Source: Acidobacteriota bacterium (lineage in GTDB: Bacteria > Acidobacteriota > CAIWXX01). Taken from it: a stretch of DNA of 64,000 nt. Position numbers and translations under genes: made by a program. The DNA lies in NCBI GenBank assembly GCA_040755995.1, contig JBFMAF010000032.1, positions 225,306-289,305 on the forward strand, in the 5' to 3' direction. Each line of letters opens with the position of its first letter. The first letter of the stretch is position 1. Positions 2 through 8,487 of this stretch are shown piece by piece. The notes under the pieces were generated by a model that saw nothing but the letters and a program-made list of their open reading frames with translations, was not told where the DNA came from and did not search any database.

Positions 2-2101
2 GGCCGCACGCCGCTGGCGCTCATCCGGAATGACCGGTACGGCGACGAGCGGCCGCCTGTGCTGCCGATCGAGCGAGGCACAGAACGGCTGGCATCGGTG
101 TTCACAGAGTCCGTGTCGGTGCGGTCGCCGCGCATGCCGGCCGGCGAAGAGAGTCTCTTCCCGAACAAGTTTGCGAAGATGCTTTCGCCCCGCTACGAGG
201 AATCCACGTCGCAGGCGGCGGCGCTCTCGCACGAAGCGCAGTTTGTCGGGCGGCTGTTGATGAAGAGTCCGGAGCGGGTGGTGCGCGAGGCCGGGAGAAG
301 CCTCGACGAGTTCGGCAAGTCCTACGTTGTGGCGCTGATGGACAGCGGCGCCGGGGCACGGCAGAACGGGACGCTGGTCGTGCCCGAGAGGGACGTGGCT
401 ACGAAGGGCTCCAAACAGGGGTTGCGCGACCTCGAGCCGCTGCGGACCGGCATCCGGTACGATACGGAGTCTTTCGCGGACTACGCACTGGCGAGCAGGA
501 TGTACGTGGACGCCCCGGGCAAGAGGATCGAGGATGCACAGGGGGTCCTCCTCTTGCAGCGGAAGATCCTCGATCGTTTCGGCGAAGCCGGCTACGTGCC
601 CGAGAGCTTCGAGGCGTTTGTCGACGGCGATGGTACTGCGGTCACGGTCTTGCCGTCTTCCGAGAAGGCGCGCAAGATGGCCGTGGCCAAGCTTGCAGCG
701 GTTTTCACCGAAGCCTCGATCAAGAAGGCGCTCGAGCCGGAAGGCGAGCCGCTGATTTCCGAGGATCTGCTGTTCTTGGCCATGAAGCCTGAGCTGGCGA
801 AGTACTTCCAGAACGAACTGCGGGCTGTCGTGGACCGCGATGAACGGGGAGCGTGGGAGATCGCGGCTGATGTGGTGGCGCGCCGGCTTCTGGGCTTTGA
901 CCCGAGCGACTCGATGAAGAAGCTGCTCGATGTTTGGGACGCGGACGTGGCCTTGCCGCCGGGCGAGCCGCCCGCCACATCCAGCATCGGGCCGGTGCTG
1001 CGCTATGATCCGCCGGCTCTGCTCCTCTACCTGCTCGCACGGCACGACGCGAACGACTTCAGGTTCAGGCGCACATTGAGTCTCTTCGGCACGCTCATCG
1101 AGAGCGAATGGAGCCTGAGATGGGAGAAGACCCACGCGATGCTGCCTCCGTCAGAGTTCTGGCTGCTGAAGGAGGGACCGAAGAGCAGGCCCGAGGACGG
1201 CGATCTCGTCACGTTCGGTGTGCGGGTCGAGAACCGGTGCCCAGTGGCCGAAGCGCGGGCGCATGACATCCCGGCGCTTCTGTTGAAGGCCGAGTTCCTG
1301 CCGTCGCCGTTGTACGCGGGCACCGAGCCGGCCGAGGGCCTGAACGTCCTGAAGGAGTTCCTGTGGTCGTACCGGGACTTCGTGGAAGGCGACCTGTTGA
1401 GCTACCGGTACCAGGTGCTCCTGCCGAGGGACCTGCGCGGAAGATACGTCGAGGGCAGGCTGTGGGCGCGGGGCTACTCGGGATACGAGCAGTTCGGCCC
1501 TGACAGCGCCGCGGGCCTCCTGTGCGAAGACGTGGATCCGGTCGAGCTACTGCCGATTGTGCCGTTGAAGCCGATCCAGGCTATCGTCTATCACGACGTC
1601 AACGTCAACGGCATCCTAGACGCCGGCGAACGCGGGATCCCGGGAATCGCGTTCAAGGACACGCTCGGGCGAGTCTACCTGAGCGACGCCGAAGGACGGT
1701 TCGATGTCGCGGCGGGCGACCAGCACGTGGGCCTACAGATCGAGCTCAAGTCGGTGCACGCGACATACGTGCTCACGACCGCTCCCACCCGTCTGCTGAA
1801 CCGCGACACCGGGGGTCCAGTGCAGTTCGGCATGGTCTCCTGCGTGACGCTGCGCGGAGTAGTCTACGAGGACGCCAATGACAACGGCGTGTACGACGAC
1901 GGCGAGCCGAGGCCGCAGGGTGCGGTGCTAAAAGCCGGCGAGAAGCACGCGGTGACCGGACCGGGCGGCACATTCGAGCTCAGGAACCTGCCAGAGGCGT
2001 GGATAGACACTCTCGACATCGACTCGCGCCAGCCGTTCCTGCATGCCGCACTGGGCAAGCTGAGGATCGTGACGAGCGAGCTTGTCGGGGCCCGGGATTA
2101 G
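2..2101 (+). CDS. Large protein with C-terminal SdrD B-like (Cna-B) domains; 5' end outside the window
   Basis: Frame is open from the window edge. Two SdrD-B signature segments: VYHDVNVNGILDAGERGIPG and VYEDANDNGVYDDGEPRPQG. Confidence 0.7.
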   Translation, partial: GRTPLALIRNDRYGDERPPVLPIERGTERLASVFTESVSVRSPRMPAGEESLFPNKFAKMLSPRYEESTSQAAALSHEAQFVGRLLMKSPERVVREAGRSLDEFGKSYVVALMDSGAGARQNGTLVVPERDVATKGSKQGLRDLEPLRTGIRYDTESFADYALASRMYVDAPGKRIEDAQGVLLLQRKILDRFGEAGYVPESFEAFVDGDGTAVTVLPSSEKARKMAVAKLAAVFTEASIKKALEPEGEPLISEDLLFLAMKPELAKYFQNELRAVVDRDERGAWEIAADVVARRLLGFDPSDSMKKLLDVWDADVALPPGEPPATSSIGPVLRYDPPALLLYLLARHDANDFRFRRTLSLFGTLIESEWSLRWEKTHAMLPPSEFWLLKEGPKSRPEDGDLVTFGVRVENRCPVAEARAHDIPALLLKAEFLPSPLYAGTEPAEGLNVLKEFLWSYRDFVEGDLLSYRYQVLLPRDLRGRYVEGRLWARGYSGYEQFGPDSAAGLLCEDVDPVELLPIVPLKPIQAIVYHDVNVNGILDAGERGIPGIAFKDTLGRVYLSDAEGRFDVAAGDQHVGLQIELKSVHATYVLTTAPTRLLNRDTGGPVQFGMVSCVTLRGVVYEDANDNGVYDDGEPRPQGAVLKAGEKHAVTGPGGTFELRNLPEAWIDTLDIDSRQPFLHAALGKLRIVTSELVGARD
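1628..1712 (+). repeat. 85-bp degenerate direct repeat, copy 1 (copy 2 at 7644-7728)
   Basis: Ungapped manual alignment, 10 mismatches in 85 bp. Confidence 0.9.
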
Positions 2102-2409
2102 CAGCGGCTGACTTCATCTGATATCTCAGCAGACTCCAGTCGAGATTCTGAAAACTGAAGAAAAGGCGTCACAGCCTGATGAGCCTGACGAATCTGCCAA
2201 TGGGCCAGCGTCTGGCCGTTTTCCAGGAAGTGGATGAACGATTCGATCTTTGCAGCGTCCGCCTTCGACCCCGGCGTGCAGAACTGCTGGAAGCTCTGCA
2301 CCCATTTGACGTAGTAAGGTGCCTGGTTTTCCGGGACCAATCGGCGGCTTCTCAGATGGTTCTGAAATTGCTGGAGAAGCTCATCTTGCCGCGTAAGAAT
2401 CACCGCCAT
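2098..2409 (-). pseudogene. intI: Truncated integron-integrase-like gene: N-terminal phage-integrase SAM-like domain only, no catalytic domain
   Basis: LQQFQNHLRSRRLVPENQAPYYVKWVQSF...WQIRQAHQAV resembles the N-terminal extension of long IntI proteins. Divergent from attI and the cassette array. No tyrosine-recombinase R-H-R-Y motifs follow. Confidence 0.65.
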
Positions 2410-2528
2410 TGCTGGGCCAGCCTCAATACGCCGACCACCGCATACCACAGTATCGAAGAGTGGTCCTCAATCCGTCCACCGGCCGAACGGATCGAAAGCA
2501 GGAATCCAGAGAAACACTCAATTGAACG

Positions 2529-2557
2529 TTGACAGAACGCTGTCCCCGAACTACGAT
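2529..2557 (+). promoter_or_regulatory. Sigma70-type promoter, candidate cassette promoter Pc
   Basis: TTGACA-17 bp-TACGAT, about 105 bp upstream of the attI-like site and facing the array. Confidence 0.7.
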
Positions 2558-2652
2558 CCCAGCAGATCAGCGGGACGAGCTGGGATAGGAGGAACTCCTC
2601 GAGACGAGCGACACCGTTCGATAGGGGCCAACATGGGAAAGCCGGGGCTTCC

Positions 2653-2670
2653 GTCTAATAATTGTTAGCC
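2653..2670 (+). mobile_element. attI: attI-like recombination site
   Basis: GTCTAATAATT-GTTAGCC with a GTTRRRY core at 2664-2670. 2664-2674 is the exact reverse complement of 3145-3155 at the left end of the first attC. Confidence 0.7.
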
Positions 2671-2691
2671 CTCATCGGAAGGAAGAGACCA

Positions 2692-3135
2692 ATGATCCAG
2701 AAGAGGAACGCCAAGAAGCAGGCAGCGAAGAAGCCCGCCGCGCAGAAGGCGAGCCCGGAGTCACCCTCCGGGCTGATCGAGGCCAGGATCAAAGAGCTGG
2801 GCGACTGGCGGAGCAAAGCTCTCTCCCGCGTCCGCGCTCTCATCAAGCAGGCCGACCCAGATGTGGTCGAGGAGTTGAAGTGGAGAAAGCCATCCAACCC
2901 GATGGGGGTCCCAGTGTGGTCTCACGACGGGATCATCTGCACCGGTGAAATATACAAGGGCCGCGTCAAGCTGACCTTCGCCAAGGGCGCCGCGCTCAAG
3001 GACCCTTTCCGCCTCTTCAAATCGAGCCTGGAGGGCAACGCCAGGCGGGCCATCGACATCCGCGAATGCGACAAGATCGACGAGGAGGCGTTCAAAGCAC
3101 TGGTCCGCGCCGCCGTGGTCCTTAATACATCGTGA
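2692..3135 (+). CDS. Cassette 1: DUF1801 (YdhG-like) protein
   Basis: LGDWR...RVRALIKQADPDVVEELKW...GVPVWSHDGIICTGE.YK..VKLTFAKGAALKDP. Confidence 0.85.
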   Translation: MIQKRNAKKQAAKKPAAQKASPESPSGLIEARIKELGDWRSKALSRVRALIKQADPDVVEELKWRKPSNPMGVPVWSHDGIICTGEIYKGRVKLTFAKGAALKDPFRLFKSSLEGNARRAIDIRECDKIDEEAFKALVRAAVVLNTS

Positions 3136-3148
3136 GTTGGGCGGTGAG

Positions 3149-3220
3149 GGCTAACAACGGGTTCCAGCCGACGGTCCTCGCGCTGCACGCTCGGCCTGTG
3201 GCTGAACCCGAGCGTTAGGC
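3149..3220 (+). mobile_element. attC: attC site 1 (72 bp)
   Basis: GGCTAAC ... GTTAGGC, with inner imperfect palindrome CGGGTTCCAGCC / GGCTGAACCCG. Confidence 0.92.
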
Positions 3221-3347
3221 GCCCAGGGGGCGAGCAATGGCCACTAGCAAGCGGAAATCGGCTGGGTCGTGTCCCTCTTGCAAGTGCGCTTACTGAACGG
3301 ACGCCCGCGAACGACATTTGAAGCAGATCTAGGGTTCGGAGTACACG

Positions 3348-3773
3348 ATGGCGAAGAACTCACAATGGGACTGGCGCGCAATTGGGTTCGGAGTCCTCAT
3401 CGCTGTCGGTGTGTTGGGCTTCATCGCGGCGACCGCTTGGAGTATCTATCGCGCTTACGCTAAACCCGAAGCAGCTCAATCATCCGGTGTTACGAATGTA
3501 ATCCTAGTCGTGGCGGGTTTGCTAGTAACCGCGTGGGCGCTACTTTCCACAATCGCGTCTGCGGTGCGGTGGATTCGGCGTTGGCGTTGGCAGTCGCGAT
3601 GGAGAGCGCAAAAGCACAAGGAAAACCTCAGTAGGGCGATCCATGGCGAGGGAACTGTCCTTGTGTCATGCCCAGGCTGTGGGAAGTTCCTCAATCATTA
3701 TCGCGAGATTGTGTGGAAGGATGGCACCCCGTGCGTCAAATGCGAATGCGGCCAACTCGTTCGCGCCTGGTGA
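3348..3773 (+). CDS. Cassette 2: two-TM membrane protein with C-terminal zinc ribbon
   Basis: Two hydrophobic segments, then CPGC...CECG. Confidence 0.7.
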   Translation: MAKNSQWDWRAIGFGVLIAVGVLGFIAATAWSIYRAYAKPEAAQSSGVTNVILVVAGLLVTAWALLSTIASAVRWIRRWRWQSRWRAQKHKENLSRAIHGEGTVLVSCPGCGKFLNHYREIVWKDGTPCVKCECGQLVRAW

Positions 3774-3857
3774 AAGTGCCTGCACTCAGTCGCCCACGGT
3801 TCAGCGTCGTCTACCATCGGGACGCTTCGACGCACTGCGACGGCGTCGTGGCTGGGC

Positions 3858-3936
3858 GCCTAACACGTCGTTTCAGCGGACGTCAGGTCTGGCCTGCGGC
3901 CAGCCCTGCCGCCGCTGAACTCCATAGCCGTTGGGC
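3858..3936 (+). mobile_element. attC: attC site 2 (79 bp)
   Basis: GCCTAAC...TTCAGCGG...CCGCTGAA...GTTGGGC. 3852-3864 is complementary to 3214-3226. Confidence 0.92.
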
Positions 3937-3956
3937 GGATGCGAACCGGAGGTGCT

Positions 3957-4523
3957 ATGTCAGCCCGATCGATAGGCTCCTGTGACGCGCGGCTGTCCTG
4001 GAGCCTCCTATTGGCGGCCGCGTTGGCGGCAATCGGCCTGCTTAGGCTTTTCAGCGATTTTCTTACGGACATCGACCCGACTTGGGTGTCGATCCTCGGC
4101 GACTCGCCCATACATTTCTTGGCACGCACCACCGACGGCTCGCTTGCAGGCAACCTCAATGTCCAGTACTTCAAGGTGATGGCGATCCCTTGCGGACTAG
4201 CCGTTCTCTTCCTTGTCAACGGCGGCCTGACCGGCGGTATTGCCGCGGCGGAGCAACGGTGGGCAAGTCCTCGGTTTCGCTGGACCTGCATTTTCGCCTT
4301 GGCAGCGGTGTGTGCATTTTGCGAAGTCGAGAAGGCCACGCACCTCCTGGGCCTCCCGACCGGGGTCGTGGAGGGCGAGCGAGCCTGGCTAAACCACGTG
4401 GTTCATACCGTTGGAGGTATCTTGTCCTACCCGCTGTCATTTCTGTTTCGGTATCGCGTGCGAACAACCGCGGAGACCCCAGTTCTTTCAGTCCAGAATG
4501 ACCCAGAGTGCCCTGGGAACTAA
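3957..4523 (+). CDS. Cassette 3: hypothetical membrane protein
   Basis: GGAGG RBS before ATG 3957, about four hydrophobic segments, fills the cassette. Confidence 0.65.
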   Translation: MSARSIGSCDARLSWSLLLAAALAAIGLLRLFSDFLTDIDPTWVSILGDSPIHFLARTTDGSLAGNLNVQYFKVMAIPCGLAVLFLVNGGLTGGIAAAEQRWASPRFRWTCIFALAAVCAFCEVEKATHLLGLPTGVVEGERAWLNHVVHTVGGILSYPLSFLFRYRVRTTAETPVLSVQNDPECPGN

Positions 4524-4562
4524 CCCCCACTCCAGAAGTGTAGGCCCGGAAGGAAGGGCACC

Positions 4563-4743
4563 GCCCAACAACTCGTTCGAGCGGACGCCTCCTGCACCTC
4601 GCTTGGTCATGCCGCCTGCAATCATTCTTTCGGCATCGTTGTAGGAACAGTTCCTTCTGCTATCATGGTTGAGCCGGGCCAGGTGAGCAAGGGGCACGCC
4701 CTCGCTCGGCGCAGATCGGCGCCGCTCAACTCGGGCATTGGGC
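4563..4743 (+). mobile_element. attC: attC site 3, long (181 bp), with R' core ATT instead of GTT
   Basis: GCCCAAC-AACTCGTTCGAGCGG ... CCGCTCAACTCGGGC-ATTGGGC. 4561-4569 is complementary to 3930-3938. Confidence 0.8.
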
Positions 4744-4823
4744 GGACCCGCTTCCCGGGCCGCCGCGTGTGAATATGAGGGGAGCTATAGCTTCGGTACC
4801 GGTTGTGGAGGCAAGATGAGGTA

Positions 4824-5282
4824 ATGAAGCCCAGGGTCTACGTAGACGCGTCAGTTGTCGGCGGGTGCGAAGACGACGAGTTTTCCGAGCATTCCAGGCG
4901 GCTGATGGAGTGCTTTACCAAGGGGGACTTCGACCTCGTGGTGTCCACTCTCACAATACAGGAGCTGGCGGGCGCTCCGGACGAGATGCGAAGGCACCTG
5001 TCGTCAGTGCCCGAGGAGAATATCGAGACCCTCCAGCTCAACGCCGAGGCAAGTGAACTCGCCGATGCCTACATCGCCGCAGGGGTGATCACGATCGCGA
5101 TGCGGGCCGATGCCCAGCACATTGCAATGGCCACTGTGGCCCGCGTCGACGTGCTGGTGAGCTGGAACTTCAAGCACATCGTGAACCTCTTCCGGATCCA
5201 CGGGTTCAACTCCGTGAATCTGCGGAGAGGATATCCTACGCTCGAGATTCGAGCGCCGTGGGAGGTATTGCCCGATGAGTAG
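4824..5282 (+). CDS. Cassette 4: PIN-domain (VapC-like) toxin
   Basis: VYVDASV...TIQEL...DAQHIAMAT...DVLVSWNFKHIVN. Confidence 0.85.
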   Translation: MKPRVYVDASVVGGCEDDEFSEHSRRLMECFTKGDFDLVVSTLTIQELAGAPDEMRRHLSSVPEENIETLQLNAEASELADAYIAAGVITIAMRADAQHIAMATVARVDVLVSWNFKHIVNLFRIHGFNSVNLRRGYPTLEIRAPWEVLPDE

Positions 5283-5481
5283 AACCGAGAAGAAGTTCGA
5301 CGCTGTTGCCATGATGCGGTCGGCTCGAGACAGAATCTCGGCCGAGATCGAAGGCATGACGCTAGACCAAGAGCTTGCGTGGTTCCCATCGCAGGAGATC
5401 AAGGATCCCTTCTTGAGGCGGCTTCGAGAAAGGGCTGCCCAACAAACCGATTCAGCGGCTCGGCCTTCGGCCGGCCGCTGA
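5275..5481 (+). CDS. Cassette 4: small putative antitoxin downstream of the PIN gene
   Basis: 68 aa, overlaps the PIN stop, KKFDAVAMMRSARDRIS motif. The C-terminus is encoded inside attC4. Confidence 0.7.
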   Translation: MSRTEKKFDAVAMMRSARDRISAEIEGMTLDQELAWFPSQEIKDPFLRRLRERAAQQTDSAARPSAGR

Positions 5482-5498
5482 TCGGCAGGGCGTTGGGC
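5437..5498 (+). mobile_element. attC: attC site 4 (62 bp)
   Basis: GCCCAAC-AAACCGATTCAGCGG...CCGCTGATCGG...GTTGGGC. Confidence 0.9.
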
Positions 5499-5650
5499 GA
5501 CCTGAATCATCATTGTCGGCGTAGCATGCATGCAATCTTGACAGCACTTGGTCTCGTGGGCATCGTTTTAGATCCATCTCTTGCTTCGAACCCTGCCGGC
5601 ATTCGGAACGCCGACAGGGAAGGAGCCTCCGGACCAAGGAGGGTTGGGAA

Positions 5651-6472
5651 ATGAACAAGCTCGATTCCGTGATTGGCCTTCTTGCTGTGTCTGCGCTTAC
5701 GGTCCCTGCGCTGCCAGGCAATGTTTCAGCTCAACAAACCGGCAAGATCACCGAAACCGTCGAGTCTCAAACGGCAATGATCCCGGCGGGTTCGTTCCTC
5801 ATGGGCCGGGAGAGAAGCGCCCTCCCTGCGTATGTTGACGATTCGCCGCACAAGGTGGTACTCGACTCCTTCTACATGGATAAGGTGGAAGTCACCAACG
5901 CTAGGTATCAGAGCTTTTGTCAGGCCACCGGGCACAGGCTTCCGATCTTCTGGGGGATGAAGGAGTTTCACAGCGGCCCCGATTTTCCCGATTATCCGGT
6001 GGTCGGTGTCTCGCATGCCGACGCCGAAGCCTACGCTCAATGGCGGGGATGCCGCCTGCCCACCGAGGCTGAGTGGGAATACGCCGCCCGCGGCGGACTG
6101 AACGGCAAAGACTTTCCCGGCGGCGATTCGCTGGAAACCAAGGACGCCAACATCGGTCATGAGAGCACGGGAACAGCCAGGGTCGCCGGCTACGCGGCCA
6201 ACGGTTACCGATTGTTCGACATGGCCGGCAATGTCGGCGAGTGGGTGGCGGACTACTACGACAGGGACTACTATCGCAGCAGCCCGGAGAAGAACCCACC
6301 CGGACCGGCGGTTGGCCGCTTCCGGGTCGTCCGCGGCGGTGGTTGGTACTCAGGAAAAAGCTGCAATGCCGTTCACTACCGGAACGCTCTGCCGGCGAGC
6401 TGGGTCGATTTCAACGTCGGTTTTCGTTGCGCATGCGACGCCGGCCGACCGGACAACACCGGTCAAGAGTGA
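5651..6472 (+). CDS. Cassette 5: secreted FGE-sulfatase (SUMF1/EgtB C-terminal-like) domain protein
   Basis: Signal peptide, IPAGSFLMG, EVTN, RLPTEAEWEYAARGG, DMAGNVGEWV, RVVRGGGW, VGFRC. Confidence 0.9.
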   Translation: MNKLDSVIGLLAVSALTVPALPGNVSAQQTGKITETVESQTAMIPAGSFLMGRERSALPAYVDDSPHKVVLDSFYMDKVEVTNARYQSFCQATGHRLPIFWGMKEFHSGPDFPDYPVVGVSHADAEAYAQWRGCRLPTEAEWEYAARGGLNGKDFPGGDSLETKDANIGHESTGTARVAGYAANGYRLFDMAGNVGEWVADYYDRDYYRSSPEKNPPGPAVGRFRVVRGGGWYSGKSCNAVHYRNALPASWVDFNVGFRCACDAGRPDNTGQE

Positions 6473-6551
6473 CGAAGAAATATATGCTGCCTCCAAGCGA
6501 GCTCTTTCCGACTCAAGAAGACGAGATGGACGCGAACGAGTAGCACAGGTC

Positions 6552-6713
6552 GCCCAACATGTCGTTCAAGCGGACAGCGCCTGCGGATCGGCTCTGAATC
6601 ATTCATTTCAGTTGTGTGTCCTTTCGGCTATCATTGGTGATTGGCCGGGGCAGGTGAGCAAGCGCGGCGCCTTCGGTCGTGCGCAGCGCTGCCGCTCAAC
6701 TCCGGCGTTGGGC
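6552..6713 (+). mobile_element. attC: attC site 5, long (162 bp)
   Basis: GCCCAAC-ATGTCGTTCAAGCGG...CCGCTCAACTCCGGC-GTTGGGC. 6546-6558 is complementary to 5492-5504. Confidence 0.88.
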
Positions 6714-6770
6714 AGACAAGAGGGCCAGTCGAGTGGATCAGTGTCGAGCGACGCCACCAGGAGGGGACGC

Positions 6771-7301
6771 GTGGCACTCGTGGTTCTTCTGAGAGGGATC
6801 AACGTCGGCGGTCACAGGACCTTCCGACCCTCCATATTGGCCGAACAACTGAAGCACCTCGATGTCGTCAACATCGGCGCGGCGGGCACCTTCGTGATCC
6901 GGCGGCCAGTGACCCGCGCGCAGCTCCGCGCAGAATTGGCCCGCAGGCTTCCCTTTACCGCCGAGATCATGATCTGCCAGGGCCGCGAGATTGTCAGGCT
7001 GACGTCTCAGAATCATTTCGTGGACCAGACCCCACGAAACGACATCGGCCGCTTCGTGAGCGTCCTATCCAAACGCCCCCGCTCGATGCCATCGACACCC
7101 ATGAGCTTTCCCGCCAGCGGCAAGTGGCTGCTGAAGATCCTCGGGACGGACAACCGCTTCGTCTTCGGCGTGTACCGACGCCAGATGAAGGTCATCAGCT
7201 ACCTCGGTACGTTCGACCGGATCTTTGGAGTCCCGGTCACCACGCGCAACTGGAATACCATCACCGCGATCGCCAGGGTGCTGGGGAACGAAGGGTCCTG
7301 A
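6771..7301 (+). CDS. Cassette 6: DUF1697 family protein
   Basis: GTG start after GAGGGG, LLRGINVGG at the N-terminus and TTRNWNT at the C-terminus. Confidence 0.88.
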   Translation: MALVVLLRGINVGGHRTFRPSILAEQLKHLDVVNIGAAGTFVIRRPVTRAQLRAELARRLPFTAEIMICQGREIVRLTSQNHFVDQTPRNDIGRFVSVLSKRPRSMPSTPMSFPASGKWLLKILGTDNRFVFGVYRRQMKVISYLGTFDRIFGVPVTTRNWNTITAIARVLGNEGS

Positions 7302-7315
7302 TGGCGGGGGCTGCT

Positions 7316-7350
7316 GCCCAACAACCGCCGGCAGGCGACGGCGGGCGGGT
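7316..7350 (+). mobile_element. attC: Left half of attC site 6; right half deleted
   Basis: CTGCCCAAC (7314-7322) is complementary to the cassette start GTTGGGCAG (6707-6715). It is followed by AACCGCCGGCAGGCGACGG, with no matching right arm. Confidence 0.65.
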
Positions 7351-7360
7351 CGGGAGTTGC

Positions 7361-7603
7361 GCCGAGGTGGACCTTCTACTCGAGCAACATGGGGAGCTCA
7401 AGTTGGCTGTCGAAATCAAGGGCAAGAAGCGCGTGAGCGGCGCAGACCTCTCCGGCCTTCGATCGTTCGCAGAGGCGCACCTCAGTGTCCCACGATATGT
7501 CGTAGCGGAGGTACCGGAGGGGTTCGAGATCGAGGGCTGCCGAGTTCTACCGTTTCGGGTATGGCTGAGTGAGATCGGCTCGGTGCTACGACGGTCGCGC
7601 TGA
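7361..7603 (+). pseudogene. C-terminal fragment of an AAA_14/DUF4143 ATP-binding protein
   Basis: AEVDLLLE...AVEIKG...DLSGLRSF PD-(D/E)xK-like tail, with no start codon or ATPase domain. Confidence 0.7.
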
Positions 7604-7643: not shown

Positions 7644-7728
7644 GAACGCGGGATCCCGGGGACCGCGTTCAAGGACACGCTCGCGAGAGTCTGCCTCAGC
7701 AACGCCCAAGGACGGCTCGATCTCGCGG
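7644..7728 (+). repeat. 85-bp degenerate direct repeat, copy 2 (fragment of the SdrD-B coding sequence)
   Basis: Translates ERGIPGTAFKDTLARVCLSNAQGRLDLA versus ERGIPGIAFKDTLGRVYLSDAEGRFDVA in copy 1. Confidence 0.9.
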
Positions 7729-7772
7729 ATCTTGCCACCGAGAATCCGCCCAGTTCCACACTTCTCCGCCTG

Positions 7773-7801
7773 TTGACATCAACGCACCCAAGGGCTATTC
7801 T
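7773..7801 (+). promoter_or_regulatory. Sigma70-type promoter
   Basis: TTGACA-17 bp-TATTCT upstream of 7978. Confidence 0.65.
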
Positions 7802-7977
7802 CCGGTCGTGATCGACGGCCGATCTCCACAACTTCGCTGTCGAGCGCACCTCTCCTCCCTCCCTCAGGACGGAGGGCGGGACGATGTGCCTCCACTTCCA
7901 TGTTGGATTTTCTACTTCTGTAGTAGTTCCGAGGCGCAGTCCGAAAAGCAACTTCTTATCTCTCATCGGAGGAATCC

Positions 7978-8487
7978 GTGAAGCCGGGAGTACTGCGAGC
8001 GTCGCTATTCGCCTTCATATCGGCACTGGTCGTTGCGGGCATCTGGTTCCAGTCCTCGTTCGGCCCGAGCGGCCTGCGCGTGAGCGCAGCGCCAGAATCC
8101 CCAGGAGCGCCCCAGAACACTGGCAACCATCCGGCGTCTCCGCGGCTGGGACAGGGTTACAACGTCCGGGCCTGGTACGATGAGAAGGATGATCACGATG
8201 CAGAGCTCCACTGCGTTGTGACAAAGGACGGAGTGCCTGTCGCCGGCACTCTCATCGAGTTCGGAGTGCTCTCGGGTCCTCACAGAGGAGAGTGGACCGC
8301 GAGTGCCGTGACGAATTCCAAGGGGGAAGCGGTCGTATTGTTCAAGGGGGACGGCAAACAGGGTCTGGACACGTGTTACTTCTACCCGAAGGACTTGGGG
8401 ATCGATTCAGTGGAGAGAACTGTCGACTGGACCAAGATACTGACGGGCAACCCCTACCGGAGGTATGAACCCAGCAGTTGTGGCTAG
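7978..8487 (+). CDS. Exported protein with Ig-like (Big-1-like) domain
   Basis: GGAGG RBS, N-terminal TM/signal, DGVPVAG.LIEF...VTNSKGEA pattern. Confidence 0.6.
   Translation: MKPGVLRASLFAFISALVVAGIWFQSSFGPSGLRVSAAPESPGAPQNTGNHPASPRLGQGYNVRAWYDEKDDHDAELHCVVTKDGVPVAGTLIEFGVLSGPHRGEWTASAVTNSKGEAVVLFKGDGKQGLDTCYFYPKDLGIDSVERTVDWTKILTGNPYRRYEPSSCG

What the first reader, a model, noticed from the sequence alone, without database searches (positions are those of the whole stretch)
2098..7603. Frozen six-cassette integron whose integrase is cut down to an N-terminal SAM-like domain
Seen: a Pc-like promoter (2529-2557), an attI-like site (core 2664) and attC sites at 3149, 3858, 4563, 5437, 6552 and 7316 (half). 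Cassette starts are complementary to the left end of their own attC over 11, 13, 9, 13 and 9 bp for cassettes 1, 2, 3, 5 and 6; cassette 4 matches only at the core. Established: this is the footprint of circular cassette integration by IntI. The divergent 103-aa ORF sits where intI should be but lacks the catalytic domain, and its stop overlaps the stop of the neighbouring gene (2098-2101). Inference: the platform (attI plus Pc) is intact and probably expressed, but can only be shuffled by an integrase acting in trans.
Basis: partly seen in the sequence, partly recalled or inferred. Interest (0 to 1): 0.72.

Follow-up and report, generated by a model that had tools for sequence, protein, structure and literature searches.

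The report
Dead integron with orphan docking site
This is a real six-cassette gene-capture array (integron) whose integrase gene is cut down to 103 residues; no intact integrase was found elsewhere in the genome assembly, so the array is likely fixed in place while its predicted promoter would still drive the front cassettes, a common kind of decay.

Summary
Real and mostly ordinary. Promoter, attI, five full attC sites and one half site lie where stated, and each cassette start matches its own attC (11, 13, 9, core only, 13, 9 bp; 3 of 720 permutations score as well). The 103-aa ORF is only the extra first SAM-like domain of a long (423-457 aa) IntI that has two such domains in tandem; the rest of the gene is deleted. 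The assembly holds no intact IntI: its only full-length copy has an in-frame stop and lacks the catalytic arginine. So the array is likely fixed. It is also decaying (attC3 crossover base changed, attC6 cut). About a third to 46% of intI genes are reported inactive, and a ~120-aa-longer IntI clade was noted in 2008. Less ordinary: the same promoter-attI module occurs at three more integrase-free sites here, and a related attI occurs nine times in another genome with no intact intI. The scan noted other decayed integrons and gene-tail remnants in this genome before.

The parts
2..2101 (+). 3' end of a giant (~4,800-codon open frame) host gene, gene A, behind which the integron sits; the gene begins before the window
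   Evidence: orthologues in G001 and G002 have no integron behind them
1628..1712 (+). 85-bp stretch of gene A that recurs at the right end of the island
2098..2409 (-). intI remnant, 103 aa: the extra first SAM-like (core-binding-type) domain of a long IntI plus about 10-15 residues of linker or unrelated tail; no second SAM domain, no catalytic domain
2529..2557 (+). predicted Pc promoter (TTGACA, 17 nt, TACGAT)
   Evidence: same hexamers and 17-nt spacing in 4 of 4 sister modules
2653..2670 (+). attI simple site; crossover between G2664 and T2665
   Evidence: 11-bp match of cassette 1 start to its own attC
2665..3214 (+). cassette 1: DUF1801 protein (2692-3135) with attC1 3149-3220
3215..3930 (+). 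cassette 2: 141-aa protein of no known family with two hydrophobic stretches and a C-terminal CxxC..CxC (3348-3773), with attC2 3858-3936
3931..4737 (+). cassette 3: 188-aa predicted membrane protein (3957-4523), with long attC3 4563-4743 whose R' reads ATT instead of GTT
4738..5492 (+). cassette 4: PIN-domain gene (4824-5282) plus 68-aa partner (5275-5481), likely a toxin-antitoxin pair, with attC4 5437-5498; a 94.8%-identical copy sits in another array on contig C33
   Evidence: (PF13470 25.2 bits, under the cut-off of 27)
5493..6707 (+). cassette 5: FGE-sulfatase-domain protein with a signal-peptide-like start (5651-6472), with long attC5 6552-6713
6708..7350 (+). cassette 6: DUF1697 protein (6771-7301), with only the left half of attC6 (from 7316; right boundary approximate)
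7346..7603 (+). 3' fragment (last ~82 codons) of an AAA_14/DUF4143 ATPase gene, joined to the cut attC6
   Evidence: 62% identity to residues 304-385 of a 385-aa homologue
7644..7728 (+). decayed 85-bp copy of gene A 1628-1712 (88% identity), marking the right edge of the island

Best explanation
This is a decayed chromosomal integron: a predicted promoter and an attI site head six gene cassettes, the integrase gene beside them is deleted down to its first 103 codons, and the array is likely frozen because no intact integron integrase was found in the assembly. Shown by sequence and tools: (a) the six cassettes, the five full attC sites and the match of each cassette start to its own attC; (b) that the ORF is the extra first SAM-like domain of a long IntI and lacks the second SAM domain and the catalytic domain; (c) that every other intI in the assembly is broken; (d) that cassette 4 also occurs, with the same ends, in a second array. 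Inferred: the long IntI once loaded these cassettes one at a time at attI from circular intermediates. A deletion, or the event that brought the block in behind gene A, then removed about three quarters of intI. Later losses changed attC3 and cut attC6. Pc is likely kept because it still drives the first cassettes. An incoming IntI could likely still excise cassettes between intact attC sites, but loading new ones at this attI would likely need a matching integrase.
For: Cassette footprints. PF13495 hit. The best long homologue, P0003 (451 aa), aligns at its residues 7-85 with 39% identity. 5 of the 6 hits of 420 aa or more, and the G027 protein, pass the TIGR02249 cut-off, with that model starting at residue 107-146; the 4 of them scanned against Pfam each have two PF13495 stretches. 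The profile's best PDB match is the N-terminal domain of VchIntI4 (2a3v, E 1.4e-5). The four-helix model has pLDDT 88.9, and its top Foldseek rows are 2a3v and Xer/Cre recombinases, all at E 0.19 or weaker. In the genome only C36:325985 passes the TIGR02249 cut-off; it has a TAA at codon 275 of 412 and Leu where the three intact long IntIs compared have the box-I Arg. C34, C47 and C55 (two) hold fragments, and C33 holds a 3' stub. A profile of the first domain finds no strong copy other than the window's. Broken long IntIs are common in the phylum: of the 10 loci other than the window's that carry the first domain, among the 30 fetched, 5 are broken, and G027:C103 keeps only the first domain plus linker, as here. 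Literature: nearly a third of intI genes are pseudogenes (PMC2426708, passages), 43-46% are inactivated (PMC3108266, passages), and Xanthomonas arrays stabilise after intI loss (bioRxiv 10.1101/2025.06.18.660453, passages).
Against: The assembly is a 56-contig draft (99.84% complete by markers), so an intact intI could lie in a gap or on an unassembled element. Expression was not tested. I found no genome in which this exact attI sits next to an intact long IntI, so the link between the remnant and this attI rests on position alone. The attI core is nearly the same as that of the genome's other, co-oriented integron type, so a different IntI may have been the loader. The 103-aa frame has no internal stop and folds well, which leaves a residual function open.
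Confidence: 0.8

Rival explanations
1. The promoter-attI module is a dispersed, integrase-free docking station that spreads as a unit and is kept at several sites, to be loaded by an IntI made elsewhere or arriving on a mobile element; the window's intI stub is a leftover of how this copy arrived.
For: A profile of three modules finds 4 strong copies in G000 (C32, C26, C11, C55; E 5e-47 to 4e-12, the first three being the seeds; next hit E 0.07), all with TTGAC(A/G)-17-(T/C)AC(G/A)AT and the attI core conserved while the spacer varies. The three others have no intI remnant. Genome G401 has 9 matches to the attI core at up to 1 mismatch (reversed control 0), 8 of them with a shared ~70-nt upstream block. 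None has an intI piece within 1.5 kb, and that assembly's only clear IntI-type hit is a 57-position stub. G402 and G403 each have 2 such sites away from their one intact intI. In metagenome loci L072/L073 the module follows a half attC with no intI in 2 kb. Cassette 4 is shared between two platform types.
Against: No serving integrase exists in the G000 assembly or was found in G401. The sister modules are old (77-82% identical over their best 77-85 bp) and their arrays are short and decayed. Repeated gain of whole integrons followed by intI loss predicts the same picture. The core motif is rare: 2 of 401 phylum genomes including G000, and the G041 hit looks like chance. G401 was found by searching for the motif, so it is not an unbiased sample, and its completeness is not given.
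Confidence: 0.12
2. The 103-aa protein is a retained mini-protein that binds attI or Pc, as a repressor or as a blocker of incoming integrases.
For: Open frame with a possible ribosome-binding site; confident four-helix model; 69 of the 150 listed representatives (query included) also end in or just after this first domain.
Against: It is a singleton at 90% identity (1 member). The ends of the homologues form a continuous ladder (model positions 49-427) rather than one shared end, and a library clustered at 50% identity over-represents fragments. 3 of 4 sister modules lack it. Not found in the two same-family genomes searched.
Confidence: 0.05
3. The features are chance matches in GC-rich DNA and the ORF is an unrelated phage-integrase fragment.
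For: The PF13495 score is only just over the cut-off; no Foldseek match reaches E 0.001; my attC heuristic is noisy.
Against: Five same-strand attC folds between genes, the permutation test, a cassette-exact duplicate elsewhere, and homologues that are true IntIs.
Confidence: 0.01

Closest known systems
Sedentary chromosomal integrons with inactivated intI (Xanthomonas ilvD locus; 'pseudo-integrons' of Nemergut et al. 2008, PMC2426708)
   Same: Divergent intI, Pc, attI and an attC-bounded cassette array; intI broken by a large deletion; array left in place.
   Different: Here the remnant is from a long two-SAM IntI and the locus is not shared with the two same-family genomes checked, so it is not an ancestral genus-wide locus. 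The genome holds several platforms of two types, all without a working integrase.
[quoted passage not shown] 2016, PMC4889954)
   Same: At least two attC sites with no recognisable full intI nearby; six attC sites against a reported average of five. By the paper's criteria (IntI C-terminal profile and PF00589) this stub would be missed, so the locus would likely be called a CALIN.
   Different: It keeps a predicted Pc, an attI and a 5' intI stub, so its origin by intI loss is visible. That paper found recognisable intI pseudogenes near only 15 of 279 CALINs.
Long IntI of clade 15 (Deltaproteobacteria), about 120 aa longer through 'a single gene fusion event' (PMC2426708)
   Same: The full-length relatives are 423-457 aa, about 100-140 aa longer than the 315-position IntI model.
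   Different: The passages read do not say what the extra piece is. Here it is a second N-terminal SAM-like domain. I did not place these proteins in clade 15 on a tree.
Co-oriented integrons of Treponema type (PMC3607928)
   Same: The genome's second platform type (C33, C34, C36, C55) has intI transcribed toward attI, and its attI core differs from the window's by one base.
   Different: The window's intI stub is divergent, not co-oriented, and belongs to another IntI type.

Membership tests
Integron (complete, functional) | Full-length IntI tyrosine recombinase with the IntI-specific insertion next to the array | tested here: not met
   103 aa, PF13495 only; no TIGR02249 or PF00589 match at this locus
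Integron (complete, functional) | attI site with GTTRRRY core between intI and the first cassette | tested here: met
   2653-2670; conserved in 4 sister modules; cassette 1 footprint of 11 bp. Recombination activity not tested.
Integron (complete, functional) | attC sites with R''/L''/L'/R' boxes that fold as bottom-strand hairpins | tested here: met
   5 sites, z -2.27 to -6.36; boxes align; attC3 R' begins with A; attC6 is half. The standard covariance model was not available.
Integron (complete, functional) | Co-oriented cassettes whose 5' core matches their own attC (circular-cassette footprint) | tested here: met
   11, 13, 9, 0, 13, 9 bp; 3 of 720 permutations reach the observed score
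Integron (complete, functional) | Active Pc promoter transcribing the array | not testable with these tools
   Consensus match and conservation only; no sequencing run was listed
Integron (complete, functional) | LexA box controlling intI (common, not universal) | tested here: not met
   A recalled direct-repeat LexA motif overlaps the -35 box, but it is absent upstream of lexA and of both recA genes, is not enriched genome-wide (241 sites against 224-608 at other spacings) and is not kept in the sister modules
CALIN | Two or more attC sites and no intact intI nearby | tested here: met
Long (two-SAM) IntI, origin of the remnant | First SAM-like domain with the conserved Trp and W-Q-x-x-Q-A motif ahead of a normal IntI | tested here: met
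   W36, Q72 and A79 invariant in 27 sequences; aligns to residues 7-85 of P0003
Clade 15 IntI of Nemergut et al. 2008 | Placement in that clade on an IntI tree | not tested
   No tree was built; length agreement only
Homology-facilitated illegitimate recombination scar (origin of the island) | Leftover diverged allele of the anchor gene's tail at the far end of the island, differing mainly at silent sites | tested here: inconclusive
   An 85-bp remnant is present at 88% identity, but 7 of its 10 changes alter residues (my count) and the relatives resemble the intact copy more, which fits long neutral decay of either a duplicate or a displaced allele

The most novel reading that the evidence does not exclude
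Some environmental bacteria run a distributed integron: many integrase-free promoter-attI docking modules of one sequence family (four here, nine in G401) are spread around the chromosome, share one cassette pool and are reloaded only when a matching IntI visits. Because current tools cannot see non-clinical attI sites, an unknown share of CALINs would then be live expression and capture platforms rather than debris.
Probability: 0.15. Interest if true: 0.65.

Novelty: new member of a known kind. Interest (0 to 1): 0.3.

Why it matters
As a single locus it matters little: integrons with dead integrases are common. It has modest value in three ways. It shows a CALIN-like array whose origin by intI deletion is still visible and that standard pseudogene searches (C-terminal profiles) would miss. 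It defines a non-clinical attI and Pc by four-way conservation inside one genome, which is useful because attI is unknown for most integrons (PMC4889954). It also identifies the extra piece of long IntIs as a tandem SAM-like domain whose role I did not find described in my searches. If orphan promoter-attI modules prove loadable in trans, many 'dead' arrays would need to be read again.

Tried and rejected
LexA control of Pc: rejected. Intact intI elsewhere in G000: not found. C47 is an internally deleted copy, and the C51 contig-end recombinase lacks the IntI-specific stretch. Intact intI in the two same-family genomes: 0 of 2 over the cut-off. Word-indexed protein searches found no longer relative and only the query at near length; the HMMER search of representatives found 270 hits. 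The first metagenome pattern scan found 0. The looser one found 8 stretches, of which L072/L073, L077 and L078 look integron-like and the rest look like chance; none had a long IntI beside the site, and L077 and L078 each have a tyrosine recombinase lacking the IntI-specific stretch nearby. The genome-collection scan found 14 stretches, none with an IntI match within 2.5 kb; L080, L087, L089 and L090 look integron-like and the other 10 look like chance. The module profile found no copy beside long IntIs in 29 relative loci. Rfam: 0 matches in the window. Sequencing runs: none was listed, so reads were not checked. The search for related loci could not use alignment A1. No attC covariance model could be calibrated. 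A second regex scan for attC left halves did not beat its control (19 against 25) and was dropped. PADLOC: 1 of 8 proteins had a weak hit (ATPase fragment to PDC-S01, 22.8 bits), not taken as evidence of defence. The Atlas gave only sub-0.9 leads for cassette 3 and no answer for cassette 2. The C3:151555 and C20:186635 sites were considered as further modules: C3 lacks the promoter spacing and C20 has a promoter but no attI, so neither was counted.
Full report
Observation. The window is G000:C32:225306-289305 of a 7.7-Mb, 56-contig, 62.7% GC assembly. A TTGACA-17-TACGAT promoter-like site lies at 2529-2557, an attI-like inverted core at 2653-2670, full attC sites at 3149, 3858, 4563, 5437 and 6552, and a left half at 7316. 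The bottom strands of the five full sites fold better than shuffles (z -2.27 to -6.36) and their R and L boxes align. Cassette starts match the left end of their own attC over 11, 13, 9, 0, 13 and 9 bases, and only 3 of 720 permutations match as well. This is the footprint expected when circular cassettes enter at G|TT (established integron mechanism; PMC4889954, introduction passage). Independent support: cassette 4 recurs in another array on contig C33 at 94.8% identity apart from a 55-bp gap, and the similarity begins and ends at the cassette borders.

Cassette cargo. Cassette 1 is DUF1801, cassette 4 a PIN-domain gene (under the Pfam cut-off) with a 68-aa partner, cassette 5 an FGE-sulfatase-domain protein and cassette 6 DUF1697; cassettes 2 and 3 hit no Pfam or NCBIfam family. 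Neither library called a resistance gene. The array is decaying: R' of attC3 reads ATT where the C33 copy of cassette 4 starts GTT, and attC6 is cut and joined to the last ~82 codons of an AAA_14/DUF4143 ATPase gene.

The 103-aa ORF. It matches PF13495 just over the cut-off. A HMMER search of 1.84 billion representatives gave 270 hits, of which 150 were listed. The six hits of 420 aa or more were scanned: five pass the integron-integrase cut-off TIGR02249, as does the 431-aa protein of relative G027, with that model starting at residue 107-146. The four scanned against Pfam each carry two PF13495 stretches. The ORF aligns to residues 7-85 of P0003 (39% identity), that is, to the extra first domain. 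The profile's best PDB match is the N-terminal domain of VchIntI4 (E 1.4e-5). The AlphaFold model is four helices (pLDDT 88.9), and its top Foldseek rows are VchIntI4 and Xer/Cre recombinases, though none reaches E 0.001. So about three quarters of a long intI is missing, and the cut lies at the stop of the upstream gene. Nemergut et al. 2008 (PMC2426708, passages) reported a group of IntIs about 120 aa longer within a deltaproteobacterial clade, due to a gene fusion; this is probably the same type, but I did not test it on a tree. My searches did not turn up a description of the extra piece as a tandem SAM-like domain; the library misses most subscription papers, and I saw no supplements.

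Is there an integrase in trans? In G000, TIGR02249 gives 28 matches and one over the cut-off, C36:325985. That gene has a TAA at codon 275 of 412 and Leu in place of the box-I Arg found in the three intact long IntIs compared, so two separate lesions mark it as a pseudogene. It is co-oriented with its array, as in Treponema (PMC3607928, passages). Related fragments lie on C34, C47 and C55 (two), and a 3' stub on C33. A profile of the first domain finds only the window's ORF strongly, the ordinary SAM domain of the C36 gene weakly, and a 58-bp scrap on C36. The two same-family genomes also have no IntI over the cut-off. Draft assemblies can hide genes, and no reads were listed. Because attI is reported to be recognised only by its cognate integrase while attC sites accept several (PMC2095811, abstract), a visiting IntI would more likely strip cassettes than add them (inference).

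How common is this? In 401 phylum genomes, 30 match the first-domain profile at E 1e-5 or better. Of the 30 loci fetched, 19 match only from the ordinary part of IntI and one is the window. Of the other 10, five are full length and five are broken. G027:C103 keeps only the first domain and linker in front of a divergent attI and array, as here. Published rates agree: nearly a third (PMC2426708) and 43-46% (PMC3108266, passages) of intI genes are inactive, and Xanthomonas arrays become stable after intI loss (bioRxiv 10.1101/2025.06.18.660453, passages). By IntegronFinder's rules the locus would likely be a CALIN, and those rules look only for the C-terminal part of intI pseudogenes (PMC4889954, passages).

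What is less ordinary. The ~140-bp promoter-attI module recurs at C26:101817, C11:23998 and C55:216266, none with an intI remnant. In 4 of 4 copies both hexamers, their 17-nt spacing and the attI core are kept while the spacer varies, which argues that Pc is or was functional. An exact-pattern scan of the genome collection gave 14 stretches; 4 look integron-like and none has IntI within 2.5 kb. The genome behind L080, G401, has 9 matches to the core at up to one mismatch (control 0), 8 with a shared upstream block, and no intact intI; G402 and G403 have 2 each, away from their intact intI. Against a general system: the core occurs in only 2 of 401 phylum genomes, G401 was selected by the motif, the G000 modules are old, and repeated gain of integrons followed by intI loss gives the same picture. 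I found no paper on multi-copy orphan attI modules in one search. Hybrid cassettes bounded by partial attI sites are described for mobile integrons (PMC12901181, abstract only), and CALIN cassettes are already said to be movable in trans (PMC9668308, passages).

How the block got here. Gene A is a ~4,800-codon gene present in G001 and G002. Neither has an integron behind it, and G001 has a different cargo block there. An 85-bp, 88%-identical copy of gene A 1628-1712 sits at 7644-7728, so the integron block is an island between gene A and a leftover of its tail. My check is inconclusive: 7 of the 10 changes alter residues and the relatives resemble the intact copy more, which shows long decay but not the mechanism. 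The C11 module is flanked by a similar pair, while the C26 and C55 modules are not bracketed by one. Whether intI was cut during this arrival or later cannot be told.

Verdict. A real, clearly readable but ordinary dead integron: new member of a known kind, interest 0.3. The most novel reading not excluded is a distributed set of integrase-free docking modules served by visiting integrases (probability about 0.15).

Noticed in passing
window 7755-7980: A ~220-bp dispersed element just right of the island: TTGACA-17-TANNCT promoter-like site, a GC-rich hairpin and a TTACTAC/GTAGTAA-type palindrome, usually in front of a gene. An iterated profile gave 35 hits in G000, 18 of them longer than 120 bp and 3 of those on C32. 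Nature unknown; worth its own look.
   Followed up: partly
G000 C36:325697-327110 (L001); C33, C34, C47, C55: A second integron type with intI transcribed toward attI and a different N-terminal extension; every copy is broken, and its attI core differs from the window's by one base.
   Followed up: yes
G401 (loci L080, L090, L098, L101-L108): Nine copies of the same attI core, two pairs of them about 2 kb apart in tandem, with no intact intI in that assembly.
   Followed up: partly
window 4563-4743 and 6552-6713: The two long attC sites share an internal stretch with a TATCAT hexamer, also seen in decayed relatives on C52 and C55. It could be a -10 box for the next cassette, but the promoter scan did not call it.
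   Followed up: no
G000 C20:186635-186723: A promoter sharing 14 identical bases with the window's Pc and the same -10 spacing, directly before a gene and with no attI; possibly a module that lost its attI.
   Followed up: partly
G000 C42:23022 upstream (L022): The lexA promoter carries a direct repeat (TTAC, 7 nt, TTAC) over its -35/-10 region, a candidate LexA operator for this lineage; not seen upstream of the two recA genes in the 350 bases printed.
   Followed up: no
window 2-2101 and C32:213001-227406: Gene A is a ~4,800-codon open frame with internal repeats, conserved in both same-family genomes (4,870 and at least 4,306 codons); in G001 it is followed by a different cargo block.
   Followed up: partly
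G000 C36:48991-49048: An isolated 58-bp scrap, 86% identical to the window's intI remnant, with no platform beside it.
   Followed up: yes
window 5275-5481: The partner gene of cassette 4 reads into attC4 and stops inside it.
   Followed up: no
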